DNA of 59,824 bases from Chitinophagaceae bacterium (GTDB lineage: Bacteria; Bacteroidota; Bacteroidia; Chitinophagales; Chitinophagaceae), in the NCBI GenBank assembly GCA_035764525.1, contig DASTZB010000250.1, positions 1 to 59,824 on the forward strand, given 5' to 3'. This document shows, piece after piece, positions 3,451 through 37,719 of this stretch (positions within the stretch are counted from its first letter, which is position 1; each line of letters starts with the position of its first letter). The position numbers and the translations under genes are program-made. Under the pieces are notes generated by a model, which worked only from the letters and a program-made list of their open reading frames with translations, ran no database searches and was not told the DNA's origin.

Positions 3451-3471
3451 TGTAAATTATATATTACTCTT

Positions 3472-14539: not shown

Positions 14540-17500
14540 TTAAATGTTCAACTGAATAATAAATTCACTTCCTTCTCCTTCTTTCGTTTCAACCTTCAAC
14601 TCACCACCATGTGCTTTTACAATATCATAACTCAGCGATAAACCTAAACCTGTTCCTTGTCCAGTTGGTTTGGTAGTAAAGAAGGGTTGAAATATTTTAT
14701 CCAATACTTTTTGCGGAATTCCATTTCCATTATCCTTCACTTTGATCTCGATCTTCTCATCTATTTTTTTGGTATATACAGTTACGGTCGGTTCATATCC
14801 ATTTGACTCTTGCTTTTTCTTTTCACTTACTGCATAAAAAGCATTGTTGATCAGGTTGACCAATACTCTGCCCATATCCTGTGAAATAATATTTACTTTT
14901 CCAATGCTGTTATCAAACTCGGTTTCAAATTTTGCATTGAAAGATTTATCCTTTGCCCGCAACCCATGATAAGCGAGCCGTAAATATTCATCAGCTAAAC
15001 CATTAATGTCTGTCGGTTCTTTTTTGCCACTGCTGCTGCGACTATGTTGCAGCATGCTTTTCACTATTGCATCTGCTCTTTTACCATGATGATTTATTTT
15101 TTCTAAATTCTGTATTACATCGTCAGCAATATCTTTTGCATCTTCAGTATTGCCGGTCTCCAATTCTGTTTTCATTTCATCCAGTAGCTCTTTACTTACT
15201 TCAGAAAAATTATTGACGAAGTTCAAGGGGTTTTGAATTTCATGTGCAATGCCTGCGGTCAACTCACCCAATGACGCCATTTTTTCTGATTGCACCAACT
15301 GCGTTTGTGCCTGCTTCAGATCGGTCAATGTATTTTCGACTTGTTGTTTGGCGGCTTCCAGCTTATTGAAATCTTCATAACGGGCATAGGCGGTAGAAAA
15401 TGCATCCGCGACATGTTGTATCAATTCTATTTGTTCTTCATTCAATTGTTCAGTATTACCTACATACAGCATACCCTGGAGGAAGGGAAGAAAATGCAAA
15501 TAGAATCCTCCTTGTGGAATTGTTTTTAAATATTGTTCTCTTGACGCAAGTGATCCTTGCTTCATTAGAATATCAGCAAACTGTATAAACTCTTCTTCAC
15601 CCCAGTGATCGACGTAGATTTTTTTATGCCGCCAATTAGCTACCACCTTCGAAATATTACCTGGTGTATCATATGGCAAATGAAATGCTGCTATTGCTTT
15701 GCCATCAGGCGTTGAAAGAAATGTATGAAGGAGTTGTTGATCTTCATCCATGATAAATACGCCGCAACGAATAAACGGAATACTTAAAGTTTTCAATTCG
15801 TTCCATATTAAGGGAGTAATCCTGTCAAGGTCACTAACACTACGCATGGATGCAATGTCAGCACGAACTCTATCCAATGCAGCTTGCTTCACTGCTTCTC
15901 TTGCATTGGCTTCCGATTTTTGCAATTCAAAATATCTTCTGAATGTAAGGTCAATGATGCCTTTAAAACGATTCAGGATATTTATTTCATTTTCTGAATA
16001 AGACTTATCTGTCCAGGAATAAAGAAAGCCCAGGGAAAAAGCAAAATAATAGCCATGCTCTTCCTGCTTGTTTTGAATATCCGTAACAGCCCAATGAGAC
16101 ATTTTCGAATAAAGTGCCGCATAATAAGACGTTAGATCTCCGCCGCGAAGAACAGTAAAATAGTTTTTATTATTTAACCAGGATTCATATTGCTTATCAA
16201 ACTCGGGGTGACCAGATAATTCGCTTTCACCTATCAAAGACAGTAAGTCATCTTGCTGCTTAGCCGTCGCAGAATACCACAAAACTCTCCTGGAATTTTT
16301 TGTTAGGAGTCCTACTCCACAACGGATAGAATTGATCCCAAGTTTTCTTAATTCGGTAAACACCATACTTGCAGTAATAGAAAGATCATTACTATTATGC
16401 ATCGCCATCGCTTTGCCTCTCACTTTTTCCAAAGCAGCTTCAATGGTTGCCTCTTTTGCCTGAGCTTCTGCTTTTTTCAGATCCTGGTAACGACGGAAGG
16501 TCAATGAAAACACAGAAGCAAATCTTTTCATTATTTGTTTTTCCTCTTCAGTGTGTGGCGTTAATGAATTGGTCCACACTCCCCCTTCACTAAAAGAATA
16601 TACCTGGAAATGCACATCCGGAAATTGCTGAATTGCCTGGGGCAGGTAGCCCTGGTTGGCATTTAATATTTTAATATAGTCTTCTTTTTCTTTACCGCTA
16701 AGGAAAGTATATACAAAATCCTTTTTGTTTTCCCACTCTTTATACATGAGTTGCCAGAAAGGATGATCATCCATATTGAATCTGCCAACAGCTTTTACGG
16801 CTTTTCCTTCTGCCAGGTTGTTGACGGACCAGACATCCTGTGTGCGGTCAGGATGTATATTGGTAATACCACCACGGAAATTTTCAATTCCTAATCTTTC
16901 TAATTCGGTGAACATTGTAGCAGTAGCGGCACCTACATCCTCGCTGCTATGCATAGCCATTGTTTTGGCACGAACTCTTTCAAGACCTGCTTCTACCTGA
17001 GCTTCTCTCGCCTGTGCTTCGGCTTTTTGAAGATCAAGGTATCGACGATAGGTTTGACCAAATACTCCTGCAAAACGTTTGAAAATTTTAGAGTGCTCTT
17101 CTGCAACCGGATCGTTGGTAAAAGAAAATACAGCGCCTTCAGGAAAAAAGAAATCGTTATGAAATTCTTTTACCGGCAATGCTTTTAAATCAAACTTCAC
17201 GGGGTAATATTCTGAGCGGTTGATGGCTTCATAATAACGGACGATATCATCACCCTGCAGGACATATTGATGTAATGATCTTTTATCATTCCATGCCCTA
17301 TAGGCCGAGCTCAACAAATCATGAACACTCAGATCCAGTTTGCCAATTATCAAAGTAGCTTTTCCTTCAGAATTGGATTTTGCAGTCCAAACTTCTGCTG
17401 AATTTTCATTGTCGAAGATCAGAATGCCGCAACGGTTCGTATGAATGTCAAGGTTTACAAATTCAGCAAACATTGTTGCCACCGTTTCTCCCACGTCCTT

Positions 17501-20500
17501 GCTGTTATGCATTGCCATCGTTTTACTTCTCACCCTTTCCAATGAAGTTTCAATTTGAGCTTCCCTTGCCTGCGCTTCGGCTTTTTGCAGATCGAGAAAA
17601 CGGGTATAAGCCTGGTCGAAAACTTTAGAAAATCTTACCAGGATCCCATTTGCCTCATCTGAAAACGCTTCACCATTGTAATTATGAATGAAGATGGAAG
17701 AATGTTTGGCGATGCCTGTAGCAACAGAATAAGCATGGCCATTTAAAATGAGTTTTTTTCTTTCTTCAGGCAAATATTTGTTATCGGAATGCTCAAACAT
17801 GTATTCGAAATACTTATTCTTTAAGTCGTGATCATAAATGGCTTTGTGAATAGATTCTCTTTTCTTAACTGCGTTGAAAAAATCGTTGGCGATCGGGTGA
17901 TCAAGATAAGGGAGATGAAAATTAGTTGTATAATCCTGTCCGGCGGCTGCTAACCATAGATCAAAATCTCGGGAGCCTTCATGAAAAATATTGATATTGA
18001 CAGAATCAATATTTTGCAATCCCAATGAGCGGAAATTCTCAAACACAACTTTCACTACATCTTTGAGTTCTTCGCTTTTATGCATAGCCAATGAGCTGGA
18101 CCGAACTCTCTCAAGTGCTGCTTCAATCTGTGCTTCTCTGGCCTGGGCTTCGGCTTTTTGCAGATCAAGAAAACGACGATAAGTAAGATTGAATACAGAG
18201 GCAAACCGTTCTAATATTTGAATGGTTTCTGCAGATTGTGGTTCATGCGATGTTACCAGTATCCAACCATGTGAAAAGAAAGCAAGATTCTGGGCACGGC
18301 GGTCTTTTATGAATTCATCTTTTACGGCTACGCCCATTTCCTCCCGCGCAAATTTTATCCATTCTTTTACATCATCCCCATGCAAATCGATCACCATTGA
18401 TCTTTTATTGTCTTTCCACGCCTGGTAACTTTTTGAAATAACAATTCTCTCATTTAATCTTGCCTTAACGCTTTTATCAATATGACTGCCCAACTGATCA
18501 GTTGTCCAGAAATTTACAACACCGTCAGTTTCATCCACAATACCGATGGAGATACGATCAGGAATGCCGCCAAGCTCCTGTAACTGGTGAAATAGGAGCT
18601 GAGCAGTTTCGGCCAATTCTTCGCTTCGGTGCATGGCCATTGTTCTTGCACGAACTCTTTCCAATGCCAGTTCAATTTGTGCTTCTCTTGCCTGGGCTTC
18701 GGCTTTTTGAAGATCTAAGAAACGAGTATATGTTTGTTCGAAAACTTTAGCAAATCGTCTCAAAATATCATTTTCACCTTCTGTGAATTTCCTTCCATGA
18801 TGATTTATAATAAATATGCTGGTATATTTTGAAACAGCAACAGAACGGGTATATCCGCCCGAACTTGAAAGAGTTTCTTTTTTCTGTTCATCATTAAGTT
18901 CCGACCATGGCTTATGCTTAAATAATTGTGTGAAGTATTCATTTTTTTCTTTTTGTGAAAATTCTTCCGTAAAAAATCCTGTTCCTCTTTTTATGCCATT
19001 GATCAGGTCTGTACAAAAAGGCATATTAAAATTTGGTACATAGACTTCTTCTGATGTATCAGCTGTACCTCCTGCACCCCAGCAACGCAACTCAGGTCCA
19101 ACATCTTCGTTAATGACTACAAACGATCCTCCGTCAATCGAAAGGTTGAGATTCAGGAGTTCTTTATGAACTGTGTGGATCACCTCTTGCAATTCGGAAG
19201 TTTGGTGCATAGCCATCGTCCGGCTTCTTACTCTTTCCAGGGCAGCTTCTATCTGGGCTTCTTTTGCCTGTGCCTCGGCTTGTTTCAAATCGAGGAAACG
19301 TGTATAAGTAAGATCAAATACACCAGCAAATCGTTCAAGCAAGCGCCTGCTTTCTTCGGGACGTGGTATTGGAGAAGAATAAGCAATTACTCCTTTGGAA
19401 AATGCAGCGGCAGTGATCACTCTTCTACCCAATGTATCCATGCTGCTTACGGTTATACCACTCGCTTCATTACGGTAACGAATCCAATCTTCCAATTCTT
19501 TACCGGTGAGATCAACCACTATGGAAAGTGTTTGCTCTTTCCATGCTTTGTAAAACTTACTGATCAATGATGGCTCATCAATACTTAACTTAAATGAACG
19601 ATCTACTTGTAATCCGCTACCACTCCAATCAGTAACGTTAAAATCAAAAACTCTTTCCTCTTCATTCATAACACCAATCGTCATCTGCATCAGGTCGTCA
19701 CCAAGATCTTGAAATTGCTTGAACAGTACAGCAGCTGTTTCGGATAGCTCATCACTTTTTTGCATTGCCATTGTTCTTGCACGAACTCTTTCCAGCGCCA
19801 ATTGTATTTGTGATTCTTTTGTTTGCTCTTCTGCTTTTTTCAGATCGAGAAACCTTGTGAAGGTGAGATCAAAAACATAGGAAAACCTTTCTAACAGTTT
19901 TATTGCTTCATCAGTTGCCGGAGTATCAGAAGATATACCTATCATTCCCCTGGAGAAAAAAACAGCATCTACATGCCACGCTTGTTGCTGAACAGCGTCC
20001 GAATCATCCCATCCTTTTTTTCCAATGAGGTTATTTCTCCATTTATTATATTCCTGTAATTCTTTCCCTTTGATAGTCGCAGAGAAATTTTTTTGCTTAT
20101 CCAGGAAAGCTTTTTTTGCTTTCTTCATTACGAAACTTTCCTTTTCAATTTCCATAGGGAATGAACGATCAATTTTCTCTCCTCTTAATGTCACAAACAT
20201 TTCTCCCATTTTTGTTGCCTCATCAAAAATGCAGAGGGAAACCTGCGCCGTTGTTGCTCCTAAGGCTTTGAATTGTTGAAATAAAACCAGTGTGGTTTCC
20301 TGCAGCTCAGCACTATGCTGCATCGCCATCGTTCTTGCACGAACTCTTTCCAATGCCAATTGAATTCTTGATTCTTTCGCCTGGGCTTCTGCTTGCTTTA
20401 AATCATTGAAACGAGTATAAGTAAGATCAAAAACTTTTGCAAAGCGAAGCAGTATATCAAAATGCTCATCAGATAACGGCTCGAGGCTTGCAACATTTAT

Positions 20501-23500
20501 TCCTCCGAAATTGTTGAACGAAGCTGATAGCAAAACTCTTTCAGGTGCACGCATACCATTCTTTACAACATCTGGCAGATTCACCAGTTCAGTTTCATTA
20601 AAAAGAATATCATCCCAGGAAATTTTATCTTGCCCCTTAAGATCATAGACAAACTTTACATTTTGCTTTTTCCATTCTTGTAAAAATGTAAGATAAGCTG
20701 GGTGCTTGTGATACTTTATTAAAAAGTTCATAGGATTAGAAGGCTCTTCGCTATTAGCCATCCACCATCTTGGTTCACTTGTTGCCGGATCAAAGACCCA
20801 AATGACACACCGGGTAAGAACAAGATCGAGTTTTGTTAATTCTGTAAATACATTACCGATGAGCACATTTAATTCTTCAGAAGTTTGCATTGCCATTGCA
20901 CGAGCCCTTACTCTTTCCAATCCAGCTTCAATCTGTGCTTCTCTTGTCTGCGCTTCGGCTTTTTGCAAATCAAGGAAACGGATATAAGATTGCTCAAAGA
21001 CCTTTGTAAACCGCTTCAATATTTCCTGCTGATCTTTTGAAAGTAAATTTTCTGTGCTTGTTGGAACAACGAGAGCAGAGTTTTTAGCAAAAGCCGCCGA
21101 AATTCCAAAATTTGCGCTTCCCAGGATTGCACTCTTTATAACATCCGGGATATTTTTATAATCAGAATGTTCAAAAAGAAAGTTGAAGTAGTCATTCTTC
21201 TCTTCCAAAGAATAAAGCTTTGAAAAAAATTCGGCACCATTTTCCCTGGCATCAAAAATATCTGATGATATGGAGTGGTTCGAATATGGAATTTTAAAAG
21301 GTATAGGATAGGATTGGTACCAATCTGCTATCCATTGAATATGATCTTTTGTCCCTTCACTAAATATCATAATAATGGCAGCTCCCTTATCCACTGAAAA
21401 ATTCAATTCTTTTAATTTGTCAAACACAATTGCAACAACTTCCCCGAGCTCATCACTGCGATGCATTGCAAGTGAACGTGACCGTACTTTTTCCAATGCT
21501 GCTTCTATTCTGGCTTCCATTGCCTGTGCTTCGGCTTTTTGAAGATCGAGAAAACGGGTATATGCCTGGCCAAATGCGTTTCCAAATTTTCTTAAGATCG
21601 CATGCTGTTCATCAGTAAAATTTGTTATATCGAATTTTCCAATAGAAAGCCATGTATCCTTTAATGCTAAATTGGAAGTAGTATAACCAGGTTTTGCATA
21701 TTGAATAGTTCTATACTCCCCCGGTACATCCTTAAAAACTGTTTTGGTAAAAAGATGATCAAGCCAGCGGTCTTTATCATCTTTGCCGAAAGCTAATATG
21801 AAAAAATCATGGCCGGTTCGGCGATATTCATTAAGCTCTTCAACTGCTTTATTAAATAATAGGTGGTCAAAGTATGGAATAAAAACCCTGGCAGATATGG
21901 GATCGCCACCAGGAATAATAGCAAAATTCCAAATGTCAATACCTTCAGAAATATCCAATCCATTTGCGCCAAAATTGGCCCATTCAATATCAAACCCAAG
22001 ATGTATAAATTGTTCACCTATTACATTGATCACCTCTAAAAATTCCGATGGCTTTTGCATTGCCATCGTTTTTGCCCGAACTCTTTCTAATGCCAGCTCT
22101 ATTTCTGCTTCTCTTGTCTGCGCTTCGGCTTTTTGGAGATCGAGAAAACGGATATAGGCTTGTTCGAAAACATTTGCGAAGCGTTTAAATACAGCATTTT
22201 CTTCTAAGGTATAAGAAAAGCCTTCATAGTTGGAAATGACCAACCAGAGATCCTTCATTAAGAATAATGACCGTGCAAAACCTTTGCTATTTAATACAAA
22301 TTGTTTTCTTGATTCCGGTGCATTTTTTGCGATCGTGTTTTTAAAGAAGTGACGGAAAAATTTATTTGATTCTTTCTTATCATATACATCAGTAAAAAAA
22401 TCAAGTTTTTTAGCTATTATGTCTTTTAATTGATTAAAAATTTTGTGATCTAAATAGGGAACATAGATCCTGTCGGGGTATGATTGCTCGGGAGTAGAAA
22501 GCCAAAGATCCCAACTGCCATCTGAATATACTTTGGCAAAATTTGCAGTATTAAATTTGAATCCAAGCAACATAAGCTGCTCGGTGACAACTTTGATCAC
22601 TTGCTGCAGATCGTTACTATGATGCATGGCCATTGACCTGGATCTCACTCTTTCCAATGCTGCTTCGATCTGTGCTTCTCTTGCTTGTGCTTCTGCCTTT
22701 TTCAGATCATTGAATCGTGTATAGCTGAGATCAAATACTTTTCCAAAACGATGAAGGATATCAAACTTTTCGTCTGTTAGTGCTTCTGTTTCTACAATTT
22801 CCAATGCGCCGAAATTGTTGAACGATGCTGAAAAGGCTACTTGCTTTGGGTTAATTAACGCTTTGCGCAGAGCATCTGGAAGGTCAGGCAATTCTTTAAA
22901 GAAAGCTTTTTCAAATGTCTTTTTTGCCTGTCCTTTTAATGTGTAGGTCCATTTTTGATCTCTCGCCTTCCATGCTTGAGTGATGGATCTGAAAAAAGAA
23001 TTATGGAATGGTTGAATGCGGAAAGGCTTTGCTGGTTTATTCGCTTTTGCACTTGCGATCCATAAGGTATCAGTGGCGTTATGATGATCGTGTATCCAGA
23101 TGATGCTACTGGTCAATGCAAAACCAAGCGCCGTAAGTTCTTTAAATACTGTTGCAACGAGATCCGCCAATTCATCAGAATGTTGCATAGACATAGCCCT
23201 TGCACGAACTCTTTCCAGGGCTGCTTCAATTTCTAACTTACGATTTTTTTCATCTAATTCAATAGTACGTTTCGTCATTGCATCTCGAAGCTGTATATTC
23301 TCAGCCTTTATTTTTTCCGTACTTACTCGTTCTCCTCCTTCTGTTTTTGAATCAGGAAAAGATCCATGTTGGTAGATCACTTTCCATTTATTTTTTTTAT
23401 TATGAAATAGGCTTGATATCCGTGCCGCACCATAAAATGCCCATTGATCATCTATGAGCAAGTAAAAATCTGATTCCTCATTTACCATAAAACCTTTATC

Positions 23501-23746: not shown

Positions 23747-23747
23747 T

Positions 23748-26700: not shown

Positions 26701-28406
26701 ACCTGCTGAAATAATAGTGCCGCTGCATCTTTTAATTCATCACTATGCTGCATGGCCATTGTTCTTGCACGAACTCTTTCTAATGCTAATTGAATTTGCG
26801 ATTCCCTTGCCTGCTCTTCTGCCTGTTTCAGATCATTAAAACGGGTATAGGTTTGCTCAAATACAGCTGCAAATCTTTTTAGCAGATCAAATGTTTCATC
26901 GGATATGTCTTCATTACAAGAGAAGGACAACCATCCTTTGGAAAAGAAAATAATATTGACGATCCAACGATCTTCAGGAAAATTTACTTTCGTTTCAAAA
27001 AAACTATTACGGTGTTCATTATAGTTTTTTAATTCCTGTCCTGCAAACTCCAATTTCAGCGATTTACTTTTTGCTTTCCATGCGGCAACTGCTTTAGCCA
27101 TCACATAGGGGTCATTGATCGGAACATTAAGGGTATGTGGCAAATGGTGGCCCTGAACTGTTGTAGATAATTCCACAAATCCTGCATCCTCATTAACGAT
27201 TCCAATAGAATTTTGTACAGCCGTCAAACCTAATTCTTTTACTTGTTGAAAGAGCAGGTATGATGTTTCTGGAAGTTCATTACTTTTTTGCATAGCCATT
27301 GTTCTTGCACGAACCCTTTCAAGAGCCAATTGGATCTGAGATTCTCTTGCCTGTGCTTCAGCTTTTTCAATATCCAAATACCTGCGATAAGCCAGTCCAA
27401 AAACTTTCAGAAACCTTTTGAATAATGTTGTTCCCTCTTCTGTTAACGGATGATAGGTTGAAATGCCCAACGCAACTGGCCCCAGGGAATACCAATAATA
27501 GCTGAGCGATGATGCGGTGTATAAATATTTATCAATAAAAACATTTATCGTTTTTTGAAATGCCACCCATTCTCGTACTTTCTGATTCCCTTTGATATGC
27601 GCAATTGAAACTGATCCTTTTCCTTTCAACATCTTCGCGGCAAATGCCTTGTCAATTTTATGACCGGTATAACTTGAATCGGTGACTATTGCTTTTCGGT
27701 GTTTGACATAATATTGATAATTCATGTATTTGCCACGATCCTTATAAAAGATAGCGGTCATCACATTGCGGATCTCTTTTACCCCCAGGCCTTTTAATTC
27801 TGATGAAATGGTTTTGCATACATCCATCATATCAGCGGCTTTATTCATCGCCATAGCAACGGCTCTCACTCTTTCTAATGCTGATTCAATTTCCAGTTCA
27901 CGATTTTTTTCTTCCAGTTCAATTGTTCTTCTCTTTACTGCATCACGCAATTGAATATTTTCAGCTTTAATTTTTTCTGCAGCAAGTTGTTCACCTTCCT
28001 CAGCTCTCATATCAGGAAAAGAACCATGTTGATGTACCAGTTTCCATCCTGTCTTTGTATGTTTAAGTATCGCTGAAGCACGAATATTGCCATAAAATGT
28101 CCATTTCTTTTCCATTAAAATATAGAGATCACAATGTTCGTTGATCAAAATGTTTTCATTAAGCGCATGTACAGTGATGTGCCTTTTTCGGAATTGAGCT
28201 TTACCTACCAGCTGATCAGCTGTAGCTTTATAAAATTTGAGTGTTTCTTTTTTGCTATTAAAAATCTCACTGACAGCTGTCCCAATTATAATAATTTCAT
28301 CATCCAGAAAAGAAGCAAATGTTTTCATATCTCCACTGAAATAGGCATCCCAATAGGCTTTATATACCTTCAAAACTTCTGCTTCCAGTTTTTTAGTGAG
28401 TTTCAT
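23748..28406 (-). CDS. Giant soluble multi-module sensor histidine kinase (NTF2/SnoaL-like cap, 6 GAF-like modules, DHp/HATPase)
   Basis: 1552 aa ORF. The first approximately 135 aa look like an NTF2/SnoaL/DUF4440-type fold (YWDAYFSGDMKTFASFLDDEIIIIGT...GWKLVHQHGSFP). Six connector motifs follow (ALERVRA.., ALEKVRSRTMAMQRS.., SVDRVRAEIASMRTT). Then comes the shared kinase cassette. No TM segment. Confidence 0.92.
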   Translation of the reverse strand: MKLTKKLEAEVLKVYKAYWDAYFSGDMKTFASFLDDEIIIIGTAVSEIFNSKKETLKFYKATADQLVGKAQFRKRHITVHALNENILINEHCDLYILMEKKWTFYGNIRASAILKHTKTGWKLVHQHGSFPDMRAEEGEQLAAEKIKAENIQLRDAVKRRTIELEEKNRELEIESALERVRAVAMAMNKAADMMDVCKTISSELKGLGVKEIRNVMTAIFYKDRGKYMNYQYYVKHRKAIVTDSSYTGHKIDKAFAAKMLKGKGSVSIAHIKGNQKVREWVAFQKTINVFIDKYLYTASSLSYYWYSLGPVALGISTYHPLTEEGTTLFKRFLKVFGLAYRRYLDIEKAEAQARESQIQLALERVRARTMAMQKSNELPETSYLLFQQVKELGLTAVQNSIGIVNEDAGFVELSTTVQGHHLPHTLNVPINDPYVMAKAVAAWKAKSKSLKLEFAGQELKNYNEHRNSFFETKVNFPEDRWIVNIIFFSKGWLSFSCNEDISDETFDLLKRFAAVFEQTYTRFNDLKQAEEQARESQIQLALERVRARTMAMQHSDELKDAAALLFQQVKALGVPAYSCGYNIWEKDETTFTSWMSTQDGSDFNAVQNIPLTEDANFIRFAESRERGEQFFVLELRGEKMQQHYEYLKTIPAFKAYFDHAISVGFDLPETQIHHLANFSQGNLLFITLEPCPEFHGVFKRFAAVFEQTYTRFLDLQKAEAQAREARIENALEKVRSRTMAMQRSEELPEAANNLFLQVQALEIPAWSAGYCIWDEDKKGITFWMSSEGVMQPSAHAPCTEDPSFIHMREAYERGDAFHVEELGGEALVTHYNYMRTLPVVGEILDSIIAAGHPLPVFQIFHCVYFSQGFLLFITYEKVPEAHIIFKRFTNVFEQTYTRFLDLQKAEAQVREAKIEAALEKVRSRTMAMQRSAELAEVATVLFQQVKALGVPQWTCGFGIFEIDDKEFIWYQGSEDGDILPPCKIPLTEHPVFIQFNESRKRNDGLYIYEKTGEMQADHYKYMLSLPVLGKLLQDRLDAGIQFPTFQIDHIVNFSHGNLVFITYEHFPEMHDIFKRFAKVFDQTYTRFLDLQKAEAQAREAVKQASVDRVRAEIASMRTTSDLERITPLIWNELKTLGVPFIRCGVFIIDEEQQQVHTFLSTPDGKANASFTSAISTVSIITEALPYWRRKEMYKAHWDEATFIEQTKHLVEQGAVSSTNTYLTENRPKNLYLHLLPFLQGILYVGNETPLSDDELQLVQNLADAFAIAYARYEDFNKLELAKEQIENTLVDLKQTQAQLVQSEKMASLGELTAGIAHEIQNPLNFVNNFSEVNKELLAEMNEEIEKGNMEEVKALAKDVIDNEEKINHHGKRADAIVKGMLQHSRSSSGVKEPSDINVLADEYLRLAYHGLRAKDKSFNATMKTDFDETIGKIDIVPQDVGRSVLNLITNAFYAVSEKKKQSAEGYEPTVTVTTKRINGKIEIRVADNGNGIPQKVLDKIFQPFFTTKPTGQGTGLGLSLSYDIVKAHNGELKVETNEGKGSEFIIFLPANN
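24550..27960 (-). repeat. In-frame tandem array of 6 protein modules, about 540-567 nt each
   Basis: Connector (RVR) codons lie near 25085, 25650, 26210, 26777, 27317 and 27870 (approximate). The conserved nucleotide tract is the same as in the 14-module gene. Confidence 0.9.
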
Positions 28407-30457: not shown

Positions 30458-30468
30458 TTGTATAATAA

Positions 30469-33400
30469 TTATTTCATAGGTAAACTTATTATAAATGATG
30501 ACCCCTCACCTTCTTTAGTTTCTACTTTTATTTCACCATCATGTCCTTTTGTAACAATATCATAACTCAACGATAAGCCTAATCCTGTTCCCTGGCCCGT
30601 CGGCTTGGTGGTATAGAATGGTTGAAATATTTTATCCAAATCTTTTTGGGGAATACCGTTACCATTATCAATTACCCTGATCTCAACAACCCCCAAACCC
30701 CCTAAAGGGGGCTTTACAGCTTTAGTAGTGACGATAACCATTGGCTCATAGCCGTTACCCGTCTTCTTTTTCTTTTCACTTACTGCGTAGAAAGAATTAT
30801 TGATCAGGTTAAGAATCACTCTACCTATTTCCTGCGGAACGATATTTATTTTGGCTATGGATCGGTCAAGATCTGTGTCAAATTTTGCATTAAAGAATTT
30901 ATCCTTTGCTCTTAATCCATGATAAGCAAGCCTGAGATATTCTTCTGCTAATGTATTTATATCTGTCAGCTCTTTTTGTCCCCCGCTGCTTCGGCTATGT
31001 TGTAACATCCCTTTTACAATTGCATCTGCCCGTTTGCCGTGGTGTAAGATCTTTTCTAAATTTTCTTTTACATCGAGTGCAATTTCTTTTGCTCCTTCTG
31101 TATTTCCTTTTTCAAGCTCGGTTTTCATTTCTTCCAATAGCTCATTGCTTACATCAGAAAAATTATTTACAAAGTTCAACGGGTTTTGAATTTCATGTGC
31201 AATACCAGCAGTCAATTCACCAAGAGATGCCATCTTCTCGGATTGTATCAATTGTTTTTGTGTAGCCTGTAATTCTGTAAGTGCATCTTCGGCTCTTTTC
31301 TTTTCTTCTTTTAGTTTTATTAAGTCAGTTCGTGCCTGCGTTAGATCTTTAAAACGTGAATACGCTAAAGAAAAAACGGAAGCTGCTCTTCTCAGCATAC
31401 GCCAACTTTCTTCTGAAATATCACCTGCTGCTGCAGCCCCGATAGCCCCATGCGAAAACTTATACAAATGATAAGTTCTGTCAGGAATCACTTCTCCATA
31501 ATATCCCCGCAAAAGAGCAGAGTTTTCTTCACAGTAACGGATCCATTCCTTCCTGTTAGCTCCCTGCATCACAATGGAGATCTGTTTTTTGGGTGATCGG
31601 TAAAATTGCAACATCTCCCTACCCACCCAGGTATCATTGAGATTGAGTGCAAAATGATCATTCACTAATTTCTTTCCTTCAGCCTTTATATCTTTCAATG
31701 CGTACCAGCATTCAGCTTTTTCAGCACTTTCATCATTAATATAAATACTGCATGTCTCCAATTCTTCCACACCCAGTAATCCCATTTCCACTCTTAATAC
31801 TTCTGCTACCTCTTTTAACTCTTCTGGTTCCTGCATCGCCAATGCTCTTGCCCGAACTCTTTCCAGTGCGGTTTCAATTTTTGCTTCTCTTGCCTGTGCT
31901 TCGGCTTTTTGCAGATCAAGAAAACGGGTATAGGCTCTTTCAAACTCTATTGCAAAACGGCATTGAATATTTTTTTCTTCGTCAGTTGCAGGTTTACAGA
32001 TGCAAATACCAAATGAACCATACTTCATCATGGCATCGTAATAATATACACCTTTAGAAAAAGTATCAAAGACCATTACTCTTTTTGCTTCACCACCTGC
32101 ATTATCGGCAATACGCTGAAATGTATCGAGCCAATTCTGTACTCTTTCCGGCGGTACATAGTTGTCATGAATTTTTACTCCGGCCCGCCATGATATAAGA
32201 CAATCATTAAAATATTGTTCTGCTTCTGCCAACGTATAAGAAGTAAAACTTGTTTTATGATCCGGCCAGGTTATCCAGAATGTATTTTCATTTTTTGCTT
32301 CATCCACCAACCAGAAATAGGAGAACTGCCATTCAATACCTAATTTTCTTAATTGCTCTCCAAAAACCAGTGATGTCTCATTCAGATCCTTTGAATTCGA
32401 CATGGCCATCACCTTTGCTCTCACTTTTTCTAATGCTGCTTCGATCTGTGCATCTCTTGCCTGTGCTTCGGCTTGCTTTAGATCATTGAAACGTGTATAC
32501 GTGAGATCAAAAACTTTTGCAAAACGACTAACAATATCCATTTGCTCTGCAGATAATTCAACAGGGCCTGATGCTTCAAGCAAACCAAAATTGTTGAACG
32601 ATCCGGAAACAATAGTATGCTCGGAATTTAGTATCCCGTTCTTAACAGCATCGGGAAGATGAGACAATTCCGTTTCGTTCAGCAATAATTTATCTATTGT
32701 TTTTTTCTCATCACCTTTCAGATCATACACCCATTTTGGATCTTTTTCCTTCCATCCCTTAATGACCGCTTCATAATAAGAGTGCTGAAGTCTTTTAATA
32801 TAATAACTCTCAGCTGATCTTTTATCTTCTGAATTTGCCATCCATAATCTTGCTGATAATGTATCGTTATCAAATATCCAGATGATACAACGGGCAAGTA
32901 TTAGATCGAGCTTTGTGAGTTCTTCAAATAAAATTTCAACAAGATCATTCAGCTCATCAGAATTTTGCATCGCCATGGCTCTTGCTCTCACTCTTTCCAG
33001 TCCCAATTCAATCTGCGCCTCTCTTGCCTGTGCTTCGGCTTTTTGCAGATCGAGGAAACGGGTATAGGTTCTTTCAAATTCATTAGCAAAGCGGCTGAGG
33101 GTCTTTTTTTCATCTTTCGTTAAATCGGCTGCAGCCATTACACCAAAGCAGCCATATTTCATGAAAGCTTCTACATAATACAAGCCACCCGAAAAATATT
33201 CCGGTTTCAGTTTTTCAACTCCATCAATCAACTCTTGCCATGCAGCAAAATAATTTTCAACAGCAGCAGGTGGTACACGATATGAATAAACAGGCTCATT
33301 GCTTTTCCAGTCAACAAGACATTGTGCTGTGGCAGGCTCGTTTCTGTCAAGCGGATAATTAATGGCCTTACTTTTAAAAACCGTTGAGCCGTTTTTATCT

Positions 33401-35940
33401 TCTCCCCAGGCAGCCCAAAAAATATGACGGTCTTTGTCTTCATCAGGAAGCCATAAAAATGAAAATGCTGAATTGATACCAAGCAATAGCACCTGCTGGT
33501 GAAAGACACGTAAGGTATCATCCAGTTCTTTCGAATGCTGCATGATCATACTTTGCGTACGGGTACGTTCCAGTGCTGTTTCGATCTTTGCTTCTCTTGC
33601 CTGTGCTTCGGCTTTTTGAAGATCAAGAAAACGGGTGTATGCCTGATCAAATACGTTTGCAAATCTTTTAACGATTTGGTTATCCTGATCAGAAAATGAT
33701 TTTTTAGAATAACTGGTAATATGAATACCCGTATTTCTTGCCAGGGCTACCGACATCGTAGCGAGCTCAGCTTCCAATAGAAATTGCTTTTGCTTTTCGG
33801 GAACATATTTAAAATCAGTATTTTCAAAAAGATGATGAAACAGTTCATTCTTTTCATCAAAAGGATAGCATTTTGAAAGCAAGTCACCTCCATTTTCCCT
33901 TATTTTAAACAGGTCGTTGAAATATGAAATGTGGGTATAAGGAACTAATATCTTCGGGTATTGTTGATTTGCCTTGCTTTCAAGCCACCAAATGATATCC
34001 TTTGAGTCTTCTGTAAAAAGAATAATTATGGCTGTATAAAAATCAACATTTAGTTCCTTTAATCGTTCAAAAACTGTATGAACCACTTCCTGCAGCTCAT
34101 CGCTCTTATGCATCGCTAAAGAACGGGAACGAACTTTTTCAACAGCCGCTTCTATTTGTGCTTCTCTTGCCTGGGCTTGTGCTTTTTCAATATCCTGGTA
34201 TCTGCGATACGCTAATTCAAATACATTTCGAAAACGTTTGAACAGGTCGATCTCATTTTCATTTAATGGAACATATGTGGACATACCCAATGCCACAGGT
34301 CCCAATGAATACCAGTAATAATTAAGCGAGTCAGAGGTTTCCAGGTAAGTATCAATAAATACATTAGTTGATCGTTGGTAGTCGAGCCAGTCTTTCACTT
34401 CTTCTCCTTTAAACCCATGTGTCCAAACCTGGTTGGGTCCTTTGAGCATTTGGTTGGCAAATTTTTCTGCTACCGGGTGATTATTATAATCTACCTCTGT
34501 GACCAACAGCTTATCATGCTTTGCATAATATTCATAATTCATGTAAGAGCTCTTCTCTTCATAGAAGATCGCTGTCTGTATATTGCGGATCTTCTTTACA
34601 TCCAGAATCTCCAATTGATCTGAAATGATCTTACACACATCCAGCATATCAGCCGGTTCTTTCATCGCCATGGCGGCAGTACGTACTCTTTCTAATGATC
34701 TTTCTATTTTTAATTCTTCATTTGCTTTTTCGATCTTTTCATTTAGCTCAGTCAATTCTTTATTACGCTGACTTACTACCTCTGCTTTGTGAGAAATTTC
34801 AAGATTGGCAATTTTTTGATTTATACTGTTTTTATGAAGTTCCTTTTCTATTTGAAAATGAGCTTCCAGCTGAACAAGCGATTCTTTAAAATCACCCTTT
34901 TGCTGGTAATACTCATGCAAATTATAATACGTATTGCTCAAGAGGTCCTGTGCCTTTATTTCATCAGCAATTTTCAAGGCGCCGGAAAGCCATTCAAAAA
35001 TTTGATGATCTTCAACATCGTTTCGGTTCTTATACAGATTGGCAAGAAATATTAACACTTCTGCTTCTCCTCTTTTGTCTCCCCTTGCTTTTCTTATTTC
35101 AAGGCTTTCATTCGAAAATTTTGAAGCTTGTTTAATATCACCAGCCTGCTCATATATTTCTGCCAGGTGAAGCAGCGCATTGGCTTCTCCTTTTTTATCA
35201 CCTGAATTTTGACTTATTATCAAACTTTGCTTGCAATAATCAATTGCCTTATCAAGGTCATTAAGTTTAAGATAGGTGAAACCGATATTGTCCAGGCTTC
35301 CTGCTTCTCCCCATTTATCATTAGACTCCTGGCGGATAACAAGACCCCGCTGGTAACAATCCAATGCATGATTATAGTCTCCATTATCAAAATAGATGGA
35401 ACCGATAATATTAGTGGCATATGCTTCCATTAAGATATTCCCCGAGCTTTTCGCAATTGCAAGAGCTTTATATAAATAATCCAGGGCGTTTTCATGATTG
35501 CCAAGATGTTTATAGGTAACTCCTATGTGATAACAACATGTTACCTCAATTTCTAATGAACCTATTTGTTGTATTAAAGCATATCCTTTTAGCAAAAGTT
35601 CTAATGAGGTACCTAAGTTTCCCCAATTACGTTCGATAATTCCTAGGTATTCGTAAACAACCGCCTGGCCCTTAATATCATTTAGGGATTGAAACAAAGA
35701 AAGAGCCTCCCTAAGGAGTGGAGCTGCTTCATCGTTTTTAAACAGCCTGACATTGCCGAATCCTAACGAGCGAAGTCCTTCGGCCAATCCTTTGGTATAA
35801 TTAATGTTTCTTGCCAGTTTTACAGATTCTTCGCTTAGCTGAAAAGCTTTGGGAAAATCGGTGACCCGTGCCTCCCATGCTTGCTGGTTAAGCTCATCAA
35901 TTTTTTCCTTCAGTGATTGTATAGCAATTTCATTACTCAT
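30469..35940 (-). CDS. Giant soluble multi-module sensor histidine kinase (cytoplasmic TPR region, 6 GAF-like modules, DHp/HATPase)
   Basis: 1823 aa ORF with no signal peptide and no TM segment. The first approximately 340 aa are TPR_12-like repeats (GEAGSLDNIGFTYLKLNDLDKAIDYCKQSL, GEANALLHLAEIYEQAGDIKQA). Six connector motifs follow (SLERVRTAAMAM, AVEKVRSRSLAMH, ALERTRTQSMIMQ, GLERVRARAMAMQ, ALEKVRAKVMAMS, ALERVRARALAMQ). The kinase cassette ends the protein. Confidence 0.92.
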   Translation of the reverse strand: MSNEIAIQSLKEKIDELNQQAWEARVTDFPKAFQLSEESVKLARNINYTKGLAEGLRSLGFGNVRLFKNDEAAPLLREALSLFQSLNDIKGQAVVYEYLGIIERNWGNLGTSLELLLKGYALIQQIGSLEIEVTCCYHIGVTYKHLGNHENALDYLYKALAIAKSSGNILMEAYATNIIGSIYFDNGDYNHALDCYQRGLVIRQESNDKWGEAGSLDNIGFTYLKLNDLDKAIDYCKQSLIISQNSGDKKGEANALLHLAEIYEQAGDIKQASKFSNESLEIRKARGDKRGEAEVLIFLANLYKNRNDVEDHQIFEWLSGALKIADEIKAQDLLSNTYYNLHEYYQQKGDFKESLVQLEAHFQIEKELHKNSINQKIANLEISHKAEVVSQRNKELTELNEKIEKANEELKIERSLERVRTAAMAMKEPADMLDVCKIISDQLEILDVKKIRNIQTAIFYEEKSSYMNYEYYAKHDKLLVTEVDYNNHPVAEKFANQMLKGPNQVWTHGFKGEEVKDWLDYQRSTNVFIDTYLETSDSLNYYWYSLGPVALGMSTYVPLNENEIDLFKRFRNVFELAYRRYQDIEKAQAQAREAQIEAAVEKVRSRSLAMHKSDELQEVVHTVFERLKELNVDFYTAIIILFTEDSKDIIWWLESKANQQYPKILVPYTHISYFNDLFKIRENGGDLLSKCYPFDEKNELFHHLFENTDFKYVPEKQKQFLLEAELATMSVALARNTGIHITSYSKKSFSDQDNQIVKRFANVFDQAYTRFLDLQKAEAQAREAKIETALERTRTQSMIMQHSKELDDTLRVFHQQVLLLGINSAFSFLWLPDEDKDRHIFWAAWGEDKNGSTVFKSKAINYPLDRNEPATAQCLVDWKSNEPVYSYRVPPAAVENYFAAWQELIDGVEKLKPEYFSGGLYYVEAFMKYGCFGVMAAADLTKDEKKTLSRFANEFERTYTRFLDLQKAEAQAREAQIELGLERVRARAMAMQNSDELNDLVEILFEELTKLDLILARCIIWIFDNDTLSARLWMANSEDKRSAESYYIKRLQHSYYEAVIKGWKEKDPKWVYDLKGDEKKTIDKLLLNETELSHLPDAVKNGILNSEHTIVSGSFNNFGLLEASGPVELSAEQMDIVSRFAKVFDLTYTRFNDLKQAEAQARDAQIEAALEKVRAKVMAMSNSKDLNETSLVFGEQLRKLGIEWQFSYFWLVDEAKNENTFWITWPDHKTSFTSYTLAEAEQYFNDCLISWRAGVKIHDNYVPPERVQNWLDTFQRIADNAGGEAKRVMVFDTFSKGVYYYDAMMKYGSFGICICKPATDEEKNIQCRFAIEFERAYTRFLDLQKAEAQAREAKIETALERVRARALAMQEPEELKEVAEVLRVEMGLLGVEELETCSIYINDESAEKAECWYALKDIKAEGKKLVNDHFALNLNDTWVGREMLQFYRSPKKQISIVMQGANRKEWIRYCEENSALLRGYYGEVIPDRTYHLYKFSHGAIGAAAAGDISEESWRMLRRAASVFSLAYSRFKDLTQARTDLIKLKEEKKRAEDALTELQATQKQLIQSEKMASLGELTAGIAHEIQNPLNFVNNFSDVSNELLEEMKTELEKGNTEGAKEIALDVKENLEKILHHGKRADAIVKGMLQHSRSSGGQKELTDINTLAEEYLRLAYHGLRAKDKFFNAKFDTDLDRSIAKINIVPQEIGRVILNLINNSFYAVSEKKKKTGNGYEPMVIVTTKAVKPPLGGLGVVEIRVIDNGNGIPQKDLDKIFQPFYTTKPTGQGTGLGLSLSYDIVTKGHDGEIKVETKEGEGSSFIISLPMK
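31340..34760 (-). repeat. In-frame tandem array of 6 protein modules, about 552-573 nt each
   Basis: Connector codons lie near 31860, 32428, 32993, 33566, 34138 and 34690 (approximate). Confidence 0.9.
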
Positions 35941-36141: not shown

Positions 36142-37719
36142 TCAATGTGTGTAGAGCTGATGAATGGTTTCCAATTGCAAAACTTCAACTGCTTTACTAT
36201 AATATTCTTTTGCTTTTTCGGCTGAGGAGCCAATACAAACAACACCTATTTTTCCATATTGAGATAAAGCGCCAATAAGATGAAACATGACACCTTCCTG
36301 TAAAGTACCATCATAATGCAGATCGTGTAACATGGCAATATCTATAAGGTCAGGGGGAGTCAGGCCATGAAATTGTTCACTGCGAAGATTATCTGAGCAA
36401 AAATAAAATCGTTTTTGACCGGTAGCAGTGAGATATTCTCCTTTTTCAGCATTATAATCGCCGTCTGTTAGAAACTGGAGCATGATATAAGGATGAGTAG
36501 TGCCCCCTTTTCTCAAATTAATTTCGATGGGATAATGTGTCCAGCCATTTTTATTTTTTACAGAAATAAAATCAACGGCGAATCTACCAAGCACTCCTTT
36601 ATCACGTAATGCTTCTGCTACTTTTAGCCCCATTTTACCAATATCGATAGCATACTCGCGGTTTGCCGGGAAATAGGCGCCAAGAAATACCTGGCCGCTT
36701 TCACCGCCAAGTTCCTGGTCATGTGTTGAAATAATAACACATTTACCTTTTGGATTTACGCGGCATTGAACCGACGGAGAAGTCTTGATCTCACCTTCCA
36801 CAAATTCTTCAACTATACCTCCCATGTCTTGAAACTTTGCGAGAAATTCTTTTAAGTCAAGATCAGTAGCAACTGTTTTCAATCTTGCATAGAAATAGCT
36901 GTTTATCTTATGGGGGACATCATCTTTTTCTTTCACACCGTCATAAGAGAAGATCGCATTTCCATCTCCTGAAAAACCATCATTTAATTTTACAACAGCT
37001 TTGCGCAATGAAGGGTTTTGTTTTTTTAATTCAATCAGGGCATTTATAATTTCTTTTTCTGAATAGAGATCTTCAAAACCCGCAGGAACATTTAAACCGC
37101 ATGATTTAAAAATTTTTCTGCCATTACTTTTGTTTCCTAATTCAAAAAGGTCAGGGTCACAACCGTAAATCGGGAACCCAAGCTCTACCGATAATCTTCT
37201 TTCTTTATTCGTAACATTAAAACAAGCCATGTGTGCAAGGTGATCGTCCGGAATTGCCTGTTTTATTCGTTCGATCAATCGTGGTCTCTCGAGAATTTTT
37301 TCTGTAAGCGATCTTGTTGAATTATCATAACAACTGAACAAATGCAATCTTTTACTTGCATGATGGCCAGTGATACCCGGAAGCAGATGCAAATAGTAGT
37401 CGATAATTACCGGGTCAATGGGCATACTCGTTACATATATAACATGAGTTCGGGGCATACGAAGCAGCAGTAAAAAACATAATAACCTTTCTTCATAATG
37501 AGTTATTCCCGGGATCTTGGAAAGTATCTCCTGGTCCATGGTAAGCGATGGAATAATTATTACGGTTTTAGGAGCCAGTTTATCAGGGAATGCTTTATCA
37601 AATTGTTCGGCAAAACAGCTTTGTATCTTTTTAAATTTAGATCTTTCATCTTCCAAAAGCAATTTACCAGCGCCATTCGTCGGGGCTGCAGAAATTTCTT
37701 TTTTCTTTATTGCTTTCAT
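36142..37719 (-). CDS. ATP-grasp fold carboxylate-amine/peptide ligase-like protein (PGM1-like architecture)
   Basis: 525 aa ORF with ATP-grasp-type motifs. These are VVKLNDGFSGDGNAIF (P-loop-like Gly-rich strand), IVEEFVEGE, and FAVDFISVKNKNGWTHYPIEINLRKGGTTHP (catalytic C-terminal subdomain). A long N-terminal pre-ATP-grasp region precedes them. The substrate is unknown. Confidence 0.6.
   Translation of the reverse strand: MKAIKKKEISAAPTNGAGKLLLEDERSKFKKIQSCFAEQFDKAFPDKLAPKTVIIIPSLTMDQEILSKIPGITHYEERLLCFLLLLRMPRTHVIYVTSMPIDPVIIDYYLHLLPGITGHHASKRLHLFSCYDNSTRSLTEKILERPRLIERIKQAIPDDHLAHMACFNVTNKERRLSVELGFPIYGCDPDLFELGNKSNGRKIFKSCGLNVPAGFEDLYSEKEIINALIELKKQNPSLRKAVVKLNDGFSGDGNAIFSYDGVKEKDDVPHKINSYFYARLKTVATDLDLKEFLAKFQDMGGIVEEFVEGEIKTSPSVQCRVNPKGKCVIISTHDQELGGESGQVFLGAYFPANREYAIDIGKMGLKVAEALRDKGVLGRFAVDFISVKNKNGWTHYPIEINLRKGGTTHPYIMLQFLTDGDYNAEKGEYLTATGQKRFYFCSDNLRSEQFHGLTPPDLIDIAMLHDLHYDGTLQEGVMFHLIGALSQYGKIGVVCIGSSAEKAKEYYSKAVEVLQLETIHQLYTH

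What the first reader, a model, noticed from the sequence alone, without database searches (positions are those of the whole stretch)
15340..34760. Strict ~560-nt periodicity with 25-40-nt near-identical tracts: built-in substrate for in-frame module gain, loss and exchange
The connector codons recur every 540-598 nt across all three genes (approximate positions are listed in the repeat features), even though the module cores have diverged strongly.

At the DNA level the connectors keep long near-identical stretches. Examples are tcttgcctgtgcttcggctttttgcagatcaagaaaacgggtata at about 31890, 33025, 33595, 17575 and 21530. Variants occur at about 18135, 18685, 25685 and 26235.

Unequal crossing-over between any two of these tracts would add, delete or swap whole modules in frame.

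Two observations fit this mechanism:
- The 1552-aa and 3068-aa proteins share the same N-terminal cap and the same last module (DRVRA(D/E)IASMR..SDL(D/E)RITPLIWNELKTL..PFIRCGVFI.DE) but differ in internal copy number (4 versus 12).
- Recognisable module subtypes are interleaved and shared between genes. One subtype has ..IW(I/V)(F/H)D...W(M/I)A(N/S)...SASFNNFG. A second has ..(Y/F)(V/I)PY(L/F)DH...YF..(L/M)FEHSD. A third has ..SIG(I/V)V(N/D)E.., and a fourth has ..CGY.IW(E/D)(K/E)D...FITYE.

The near-constant module length despite core divergence also suggests a structural, ruler-like constraint.
Basis: partly seen in the sequence, partly recalled or inferred. Interest (0 to 1): 0.62.

Follow-up and report, generated by a model that had tools for sequence, protein, structure and literature searches.

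The report
Cassette-shuffled GAF modules in giant kinases
Three giant soil-bacterial sensor kinases are strings of 6-14 GAF-like sensor domains joined by one near-invariant helix, and related genomes show that whole domains were added, lost and swapped in frame at the DNA tract encoding that helix, slowly, between species.

Summary
Twenty-six modules of 180-198 aa (540-594 nt) fill three soluble histidine kinases, and all listed connector positions are correct. The tracts are less alike than implied: the 45-mer recurs 4 times at 3 or fewer mismatches, and the longest exact run shared by two connectors is 32 nt.

Each module is a divergent GAF-fold domain that Pfam misses. A continuous 48-residue helix, never interrupted by an indel, links neighbouring modules.

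The recombination reading is largely borne out on an evolutionary scale.
- Every related genome has a different module number and order (positional orthologue of gene C: 5 to at least 12 modules).
- High-identity blocks between genomes are module-sized.
- Hybrid connectors of single-module indels are visible at nucleotide level, one at the window's own A9/A10 junction.
- Shared codons exceed expectation only in the junction zones.

It is not an active switch.
- No two modules in any genome exceed 58% core identity.
- Connectors are no more alike within a genome than between genomes.
- Four soil metagenomes show no rearranged order.

Whether DNA homology or selection on the protein fixes the junctions remains open.

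The parts
14540..23797 (-). Gene A. Soluble histidine kinase of 3085 aa (3068 aa if it starts at the ATG at 23746): SnoaL_3 cap, 14 modules, HisKA, HATPase_c.
   Evidence: Relatives align from residue 18 of the long ORF.
15290..23218 (-). Module array of gene A, modules A1-A14.
23748..28406 (-). Gene B. 1552-aa soluble histidine kinase: SnoaL_3 cap, 6 modules, HisKA, HATPase_c.
24504..27878 (-). Module array of gene B, modules B1-B6.
30469..35940 (-). Gene C. 1823-aa soluble histidine kinase: TPR N-terminus, 6 modules, HisKA, HATPase_c.
31243..34695 (-). Module array of gene C, modules C1-C6.
22607..22756 (-). Connector A1-2 (150 nt).
22040..22189 (-). Connector A2-3. 5 mismatches to the 45-mer.
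21446..21595 (-). Connector A3-4. 4 mismatches to the 45-mer.
20870..21019 (-). Connector A4-5. 5 mismatches to the 45-mer.
20303..20452 (-). Connector A5-6. 13 mismatches; ESRIQLALERVR variant.
19745..19894 (-). Connector A6-7. 13 mismatches to the 45-mer.
19190..19339 (-). Connector A7-8. 8 mismatches to the 45-mer.
18614..18763 (-). Connector A8-9. 6 mismatches. It shares a 32-nt exact run with connector B2-3.
18065..18214 (-). Connector A9-10. 5 mismatches. Hybrid junction relative to G012, which carries one extra module at this place.
17492..17641 (-). Connector A10-11. 3 mismatches. Identity to G011 drops from about 92% to about 45% nucleotide identity here.
16934..17083 (-). Connector A11-12. 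8 mismatches to the 45-mer.
16382..16531 (-). Connector A12-13. 13 mismatches to the 45-mer.
15827..15976 (-). Connector A13-14. 15 mismatches. It leads into the fixed last module.
27273..27422 (-). Connector B1-2. 11 mismatches to the 45-mer.
26733..26882 (-). Connector B2-3. 9 mismatches to the 45-mer.
26166..26315 (-). Connector B3-4. 4 mismatches. Upstream junction of cassette B4.
25656..26216 (-). Module B4. About 90% nucleotide identity to module 6 of another gene in genome G001, with unrelated modules on both sides.
25605..25754 (-). Connector B4-5. 5 mismatches. Downstream junction of cassette B4.
25041..25190 (-). Connector B5-6. 5 mismatches to the 45-mer.
34093..34242 (-). Connector C1-2. 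14 mismatches to the 45-mer.
33523..33672 (-). Connector C2-3. 2 mismatches. The only literal 'ERT' (LERTR) among the 23 connectors.
32950..33099 (-). Connector C3-4. 2 mismatches to the 45-mer.
32383..32532 (-). Connector C4-5. 8 mismatches to the 45-mer.
31816..31965 (-). Connector C5-6.

Best explanation
The roughly 560-nt period is the repeat length of a signalling module of about 187 aa. Each module is a very divergent GAF-fold sensor domain. A single continuous helix of about 48 residues joins it to the next module. That helix is S-helix-like, has the consensus RFxxVFxxxYTRFLDLQKAEAQAREAQIEAALERVRARTMAM, and never carries an insertion or deletion.

Twenty-six such modules make up three cytoplasmic histidine kinases. 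These presumably work as dimeric rods whose helical spine carries the state of the GAF domains to the DHp/ATPase core (inferred).

Most of the DNA similarity between connectors follows from the conserved peptide.

Over evolutionary time, between species of one uncultured Chitinophagaceae genus, whole modules have been deleted, inserted, replaced and moved between the paralogous genes, always in frame. The junctions are confined to the connector, mostly to the roughly 40-nt tract encoding LQKAEAQAREAQ (shown).

I infer that short-homology-assisted recombination between connector tracts creates these rearrangements. Selection then keeps only register-preserving junctions. Repeated exchange, or selection on the DNA itself, accounts for the local excess of shared codons.

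The process is slow. It is not a population-level switching device.
For: Fold and helix:
- The single-module AlphaFold2 model has pLDDT 91.6. Its best Foldseek matches in the PDB are almost all GAF domains: 3k2n, 3oov, 5w10, 1ykd and phytochromes.
- The two-module model has pLDDT 89.2 and one helix running over residues 145-192 between two GAF folds.
- 166 of 166 connectors keep a fixed register, and module spacing is 187.6 +/- 4.0 aa.
- The same peptide and spacing occur in Cytophagales and Flavobacteriales isolates.

Rearrangement between genomes:
- Module strings differ in every genome.
- The positional orthologue of gene C carries 5, 5, 6, 7, 8, 9 or at least 12 modules.
- Cores of gene A are 28-92% identical to their best G011/G012 counterparts, while the N-terminal cap is 77-79% and the kinase 93% identical. 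The same-codon fraction ranges from 84% (A10) down to about 41%, which is saturation.
- 126 of 146 ends of high-identity blocks lie in the connector (p = 8e-43).
- The junction profile localises the switch to -14..-5 aa from LERVR.
- Hybrid connectors are readable for G011 K-A-B-E against G005 K-A-E and G012 K-B-E, and for the window's A9/A10 junction.
- Cassette B4 is about 90% identical in nucleotides to a module in a foreign context.

Codons and assembly:
- Shared codons exceed expectation only at -18..-5 (0.60-0.67 against 0.44) and at +1..+7.
- Independent contigs from four metagenomes reproduce those junctions of the window that they span.
Against: - The parental connectors of the documented indels share only 8-22-nt exact runs today. 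Only 6% of connector pairs in the window share 25 nt or more. This is marginal for RecA-type recombination.
- The junction zone is also the middle of the inter-domain helix, so selection on the protein alone could place junctions there.
- No recent duplicate exists, so 'gain' by unequal crossing-over is not observed directly.
- All relatives are metagenome-assembled genomes. The junction pairs are not independent events.
- The codon excess could reflect retained ancestral codons or selection on the mRNA.
Confidence: 0.62

Rival explanations
1. Selection only. Rearrangements arise by illegitimate recombination anywhere in the genes. Only junctions in the middle of the inter-domain helix give working proteins, so only those survive. 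On this view the DNA similarity of the tract is an irrelevant by-product of the conserved peptide.
For: - Parental connectors share only 8-22-nt exact runs.
- Overall codon sharing in the connectors (0.536) equals that of the kinase cassettes in the same locus (0.538).
- Connectors are no more alike within a genome than between genomes.
- The junction zone coincides with the domain boundary in the model.
Against: - Shared codons exceed expectation specifically in the junction zones and not in the equally conserved flanks.
- Codon choice is position-specific: CAA at -15 but CAG at -10, GCA in 90% of copies at -9.
- The crossover windows fall in the stretches of highest nucleotide identity.
Confidence: 0.25
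2. Active diversification device. Frequent unequal crossing-over between connectors produces copy-number and order variants within populations, as at contingency loci or in repeat-bearing surface proteins.
For: The periodic direct repeats all lie in one orientation within 21 kb. Architecture differs widely between species.
Against: - No two modules in any genome exceed 58% core identity.
- Four soil metagenomes from four studies carry the same sequence at over 99% identity and show no rearranged order where contigs span connectors.
- The only 'joints' have 40-nt sides that lie inside connectors.
- Exact repeats are at most 32 nt.
Confidence: 0.06
3. Static architecture. The differences between genomes are chimeric joins made by metagenome assemblers at the repeated connectors.
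For: All close relatives are metagenome-assembled genomes. Logan contigs break at connectors. A mis-join at a repeat would also place junctions in the most identical tract.
Against: - Exact repeats (at most 32 nt here, 8-22 nt at the documented junctions) are far shorter than the final k-mers named in the contig titles (k127, k141).
- The two most contiguous relatives, G005 (10 contigs) and G006 (5 contigs), differ as well.
- Independent contigs reproduce many junctions of the window.
- The same architecture occurs in isolate genomes such as Aquiflexum balticum and Maribacter arcticus.
Confidence: 0.04

Closest known systems
Tandem GAF domains joined by a long connecting helix: cyanobacterial adenylyl cyclase CyaB2 (PDB 1ykd), PDE2A/5/6/10, and the GAF-PHY spine of phytochromes
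   Same: The predicted fold is GAF. A continuous helix runs from the last helix of one domain into the first helix of the next. The arrays sit in front of an output enzyme.
   Different: These proteins have 6-21 domains rather than 2. No Pfam GAF model reaches its threshold. The linker peptide is almost invariant across three orders of Bacteroidota, whereas the S-helix paper describes inter-GAF linkers as poorly conserved (PMC1592074).
Signalling helix (S-helix) of Anantharaman, Balaji and Aravind 2006 (PMC1592074)
   Same: It is a conserved helical segment of about 40-48 residues lying between two signalling domains and ahead of the kinase. It has a polar E-R-x motif at its centre.
   Different: The signature here is E-R-V-R. 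The literal 'ERT' occurs in 1 of 23 connectors. The helix is repeated up to 20 times in one protein. Parallel dimeric coiled-coil formation is not tested.
Multi-GAF sensor kinases of cyanobacteria and Chloroflexota (for example cyanobacteriochrome arrays)
   Same: Many GAF domains in series feed a single kinase.
   Different: Those GAF domains are recognised by standard sequence models and have variable linkers. No cassette exchange at a fixed DNA tract has been described for them, as far as my literature searches show.
Module gain, loss and swapping in modular polyketide and non-ribosomal peptide synthases by recombination in conserved inter-module regions (from my own knowledge)
   Same: Divergent functional cores are separated by conserved segments where recombination junctions cluster. 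The result is in-frame reshuffling of whole modules between paralogous genes and between species.
   Different: The proteins here are sensors, not biosynthetic enzymes. The modules are about 0.56 kb, against 3-5 kb. No recent duplicates or gene-conversion tracts are seen here.
Repeat-number variation by unequal crossing-over in bacterial surface proteins (M protein, Alp/Rib family; from my own knowledge)
   Same: In-frame direct repeats allow units to be added or removed.
   Different: Those repeats are nearly identical in DNA over their whole length and vary within populations. Here only about 40 nt are similar, and variation is seen only between species.

Membership tests
GAF domain superfamily | An alpha/beta fold: antiparallel beta-sheet backed by helices, with N- and C-terminal helices on one face. 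| tested here: met
   The AlphaFold2 model has pLDDT 91.6. Foldseek against the PDB gives top hits with probability 1.0, almost all GAF domains, with TM-scores of 0.47-0.58.
GAF domain superfamily | Significant match to curated GAF sequence models. | tested here: not met
   In Pfam only a sub-threshold GAF_2 hit appears, in one module (E = 1e-4, 23 bits against a cutoff of 28.6). A profile search of PDB sequences finds no GAF. hhalign against the canonical GAF of neighbouring gene 11764-14433 gives probability 50%, E = 1.7e-4, collinear.
GAF domain superfamily | A small-molecule binding pocket. | not tested
   No pocket or ligand analysis was done.
S-helix (PMC1592074) | A conserved helix of about 40 residues between two signalling domains. 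| tested here: met
   A 48-residue continuous helix lies between two GAF folds in the two-module model. It is conserved and free of indels in 166 of 166 connectors.
S-helix (PMC1592074) | An 'ERT' signature in the central heptad. | tested here: not met
   The consensus is L-E-R-V-R. A literal ERT occurs only in connector C2-3. The signature is as quoted from the paper.
S-helix (PMC1592074) | A parallel dimeric coiled coil. | not testable with these tools
   Only monomer models were available.
Sensor histidine kinase (HisKA type) | A HisKA phospho-acceptor domain plus an HATPase_c domain at the C-terminus. | tested here: met
   Pfam hits in all three proteins and NCBIfam kinase models.
Arrays that vary by unequal crossing-over within populations (contingency-type repeats) | Recent, near-identical duplicate units and copy-number polymorphism within a population. 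| tested here: not met
   The highest within-genome core identity is 58% among 180 modules. Four metagenomes show no rearranged order. Power is limited, because the contigs are short.
Concerted evolution of repeats by gene conversion | Copies within a genome are more alike at silent sites than copies in different genomes. | tested here: not met
   The same-codon fraction is 0.536 within G000 and 0.52-0.55 between genomes.
Concerted evolution of repeats by gene conversion | Silent-site uniformity beyond what codon usage predicts. | tested here: inconclusive
   An excess is found only at -18..-5 and +1..+7. It is shared by the whole genus and is weaker or shifted in distant taxa. Shared ancestry of the copies was not controlled for.

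The most novel reading that the evidence does not exclude
The roughly 40-nt tract encoding LQKAEAQAREAQ is kept uniform at the nucleotide level, by selection or by the exchanges themselves. It then acts as a universal in-frame 'splice site' for sensor cassettes. This would be a bacterial counterpart of exon shuffling. It would let Bacteroidota draw on a genus-wide, possibly phylum-wide, pool of GAF-like sensor domains and rewire multi-input kinases combinatorially.
Probability: 0.25. Interest if true: 0.8.

Novelty: new variant of a known kind. Interest (0 to 1): 0.6.

Why it matters
Domain shuffling is assumed to drive the evolution of bacterial sensors, but breakpoints are rarely visible. 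Here they can be read at single-nucleotide resolution, in a large and unnamed family of proteins: over 3,500 relatives with 2 to 21 or more hidden GAF-like domains.

The family offers three things:
- A natural experiment on which domain junctions preserve signalling through a long coiled-coil spine.
- A ready-made design rule, namely to swap at the LQKAEAQAREAQ tract, for engineering chimeric sensors.
- A test case for separating homology-driven recombination from selection-driven placement of breakpoints.

It also flags an annotation gap, since the modules are invisible to Pfam and NCBIfam.

Tried and rejected
- Tandem Repeats Finder sees no array, because the cores are too diverged.
- Pfam and NCBIfam give no family for the modules. 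A profile search of PDB sequences gives nothing useful.
- Rfam finds no RNA family in the window. No ORF of 150 aa or more lies on the opposite strand of the three genes.
- Genome-specific homogenisation of the connectors was tested and rejected.
- The apparent population joint 17608 to 25656, seen in two runs, was rejected. Only 40-43 nt lie on its short side, and they fall inside a connector.
- A search for Nanopore runs found none.
- I first concluded that DNA identity is purely a by-product of the conserved peptide. The position-wise codon test showed a local excess, so I revised that view.
- I considered gene B the orthologue of the SnoaL-capped gene of G009 that has 14 or more modules, and dropped the idea. 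The N-terminal caps are only 51% identical.
- The higher identity of module A10 was not taken as proof of recent transfer. Slow evolution of that module could contribute.
- The first two-module alignment was shifted by overlapping rows. It was redone without them.
Full report
**Setting.** The window is an entire 59.8-kb contig of a soil metagenome-assembled genome (5.37 Mb, 634 contigs). It belongs to an uncultured Chitinophagaceae genus (record titles). The minus strand from 3 to 35940 carries eleven consecutive histidine-kinase genes. Three of them are giants without transmembrane segments:
- Gene A, 14540-23797: SnoaL_3 cap, 14 modules.
- Gene B, 23748-28406: SnoaL_3 cap, 6 modules.
- Gene C, 30469-35940: TPR N-terminus, 6 modules.

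Each ends in HisKA plus HATPase_c.

**Checking the observation.**
- The motif LERVR and the connector RFxDLxKAEAQ recur 26 and 23 times, with a spacing of 180-198 aa, or 540-594 nt.
- The repeat finder independently reports a 195-nt family of 19 copies at 62-76% identity with the same spacing.
The other eleven connectors have 8-15 mismatches.
- The longest exact in-register run between two connectors is 32 nt, and 15 of 253 pairs reach 25 nt.

**What the modules are.**
- Pfam and NCBIfam do not recognise them. The only trace is a sub-threshold GAF_2 hit.
- An AlphaFold2 model of module A1, built on the alignment of the 26 copies, is confident (pLDDT 91.6).
- Its best matches in the PDB are almost all GAF domains: 3k2n, 3oov, Lcd1 5w10, CyaB2 1ykd and phytochromes.
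- A profile comparison with the canonical GAF domain of neighbouring gene 11764-14433 is collinear but weak.
- A two-module model (pLDDT 89.2) shows one uninterrupted helix over residues 145-192. It runs from the last helix of one GAF fold through LERVRARTMAM of the next.
- All 166 connectors examined in seven genomes keep the same register without a single indel. Module spacing is 187.6 +/- 4.0 aa.

The helix resembles the S-helix in position and length, but it carries E-R-V-R rather than the defining ERT.

The family is very large: 3,574 hits at E below 1e-20 among the candidates scored. It spans Chitinophagales, Cytophagales and Flavobacteriales, including isolates, and is named only 'ATP-binding protein' or 'sensor histidine kinase'. 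Aquiflexum balticum and Maribacter arcticus keep the same peptide and the same spacing. My literature searches found no description of it.

**Is the DNA similarity more than the conserved peptide would give?**
- Taken over the whole connector, hardly. At identical residues, 0.536 of codons are shared, against 0.41 expected from codon usage.
- The value is the same between genomes as within them (0.52-0.55).
- It also equals the value for the kinase cassettes of the ten paralogues in the window (0.538).
- Hence there is no genome-specific homogenisation.
- Position by position, however, the excess is concentrated in two zones, in every genome taken separately.
  - From -18 to -5 aa relative to the L of LERVR: observed 0.60-0.67, expected 0.44.
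  - From +1 to +7: observed 0.46-0.59, expected 0.33.
- The equally conserved flanks sit at expectation.
- Codon choice is position-specific:

| Position | Residue | Codon | Share in connectors | Share in module cores |
|---|---|---|---|---|
| -9 | Ala | GCA | 90% | 41% |
| -8 | Arg | AGA | 82% | 32% |
| -15 | Gln | CAA | 95% | 59% |
| -10 | Gln | CAG | 78% | 41% |

- In distant orders the preference is weaker or shifted, for example AGG at -8 in Aquiflexum.
- Shared ancestry of the copies is not controlled for, so this is suggestive and not proof.

**Comparative test of the recombination idea.**

I searched a module profile against relatives, fetched the syntenic loci from eight congeneric genomes, and delimited about 200 modules with the profile.

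*Module number and order.*
- Clustering of the cores shows a different module string in every genome.

| Gene A and its counterparts | Module string | Modules |
|---|---|---|
| G000 (this window) | ACHCAEEKECBBBG | 14 |
| G011 | FAACHAJECBBEBG | 14 |
| G012 | FCHDAJECCDBBBBG | 15 |
| G013 | (not shown) | 21 |
| G007 | (not shown) | at least 21 |

- The positional orthologue of gene C lies next to a conserved ATP-grasp gene. It has 5, 5, 6, 7, 8, 9 or at least 12 modules. The last count is in the closest relative, G009, whose flank gene is 88% identical in nucleotides.

*Uneven identity along gene A.*
- Between G000 and G011/G012 the N-terminal cap of gene A is 77-79% identical and the kinase 93%.
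- The cores range from 92% (A10) down to 28%, where no counterpart exists (A1, A4, A6, A8, A11).
- The same-codon fraction ranges from 84% to the saturation value of about 41%.
- This mosaic cannot be explained by rate variation alone.

*Modules in different genes.* Modules of one gene have their best match in a different gene elsewhere.
- C3 matches the X gene of G005 and G001.
- A8 matches the X gene of G005.
- B5 matches the C gene of G011.
- B4 is 96% identical in protein to module 6 of the X gene of G001.

**Where the junctions lie.**
- Blocks of at least 80% nucleotide identity between genomes are about 650-700 nt long or multiples of that. They begin about 32 aa before LERVR and end about 12 aa after it.
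- 126 of 146 block ends fall in the connector, which is 32% of the period (p = 8e-43).
- To get past the blurring caused by the conserved connector, I averaged nucleotide identity by position. I used 111 junctions where only the downstream module is orthologous and 92 where only the upstream one is, and compared them with 10,315 unrelated pairs.
- The orthology signal from the upstream module fades between -14 and -9. The signal from the downstream module appears at about -6.

Individual events can be read base by base.
- The X gene of G011 carries modules K-A-B-E. G005 has K-A-E and G012 has K-B-E.
- The new connectors in G005 and G012 match one parental connector on the 5' side and the other on the 3' side, with the crossover inside the tract.
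- The window's own A9/A10 connector (18065-18214) is such a hybrid relative to G012, which has one more module at that place.
- Module B4 (25656-26216) is about 90% identical in nucleotides to a module with unrelated neighbours on both sides. Its junctions lie at about +8 upstream and about -10 downstream.

**Limits.**
- The parental connectors of these events share only 8-22-nt exact runs today. Classical RecA-dependent crossing-over is therefore not demonstrated. Short-homology recombination, or selection for register-preserving junctions, may be what matters.
- No genome contains two modules with more than 58% core identity (180 modules in 7 genomes). Recent duplications, the expected signature of unequal crossing-over, are absent.
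- Logan contigs from four soil metagenomes of four different studies carry the locus at over 99% identity and show no rearranged order wherever they span connectors. They otherwise break exactly at connectors. No long-read run was found.
- All close relatives are metagenome-assembled genomes. Assembly chimeras are nevertheless unlikely, for four reasons.
  - The repeats are far shorter than the assemblers' final k-mers.
  - The two most contiguous relatives, G005 (10 contigs) and G006 (5 contigs), differ too.
  - The window's junctions are reproduced independently wherever contigs span them.
  - Isolates have the same architecture.

**Earlier notes of this scan.** Three notes (e1-3997712, e1-4152018, e1-3091090) describe the same module family in other genomes as GAF-like and 'shuffled like cassettes'. 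I reached the fold assignment and the shuffling independently here, and I treat those notes only as agreement.

**Verdict.** The periodicity is real and is explained by a GAF-plus-helix module. It is not an active, population-level mechanism. Whether DNA homology or selection on the protein positions the breakpoints remains open.

Noticed in passing
window 3-35940, minus strand: Eleven consecutive histidine-kinase genes share a kinase cassette that is 73-85% identical in protein. Their silent sites are shared at 0.46-0.64, and exact nucleotide runs reach 38 nt. No response-regulator gene was seen among the neighbouring genes I scanned against Pfam.
   Followed up: partly
window 23744-23797: Relatives and paralogue B align to gene A only from residue 18 of the longest ORF. 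The real start is therefore probably the ATG at 23746 (3068 aa), which abuts the stop codon of gene B.
   Followed up: partly
window 36142-37719 and loci L017-L076: A PGM1-like ATP-grasp gene sits directly upstream of gene C throughout the genus. Homologues at 54-55% identity also occur in Alphaproteobacteria (Nitratireductor, Hoeflea), which is unexpected for a Chitinophagaceae gene.
   Followed up: no
G000 contig C240:5915-6445: The only module of this family outside the window in the same genome. It is a single copy inside a 493-aa open frame.
   Followed up: no
L007 (G011:C250) 2007-2038: The X-gene orthologue of G011 is interrupted inside a module (two ORFs, 1-2007 and 2038-3630). This is either a pseudogene or an assembly error.
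   Followed up: no
L005/L006 (G005:C6:320001-360000): In this 10-contig genome the giant kinase genes are broken into several ORFs. Consensus insertion/deletion errors seem a more likely cause than real decay.
   Followed up: no
window connectors, for example 18756, 19790, 20350, 21549: Public short-read contigs (Logan, k = 31) end at the connectors. Short-read assemblies of this gene family will therefore often be fragmented, and module counts in fragmented genomes will be underestimates.
   Followed up: partly
protein P0066: One relative carries an adenylate/guanylate cyclase domain (PF00211) in place of the kinase. The same module array therefore feeds other output enzymes.
   Followed up: no
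window 12480-13110 (gene 11764-14433): The membrane-anchored TPR kinase next to gene A has one canonical GAF domain (Pfam GAF_2, E = 2e-11). It sits exactly where the giants have their last module.
   Followed up: partly
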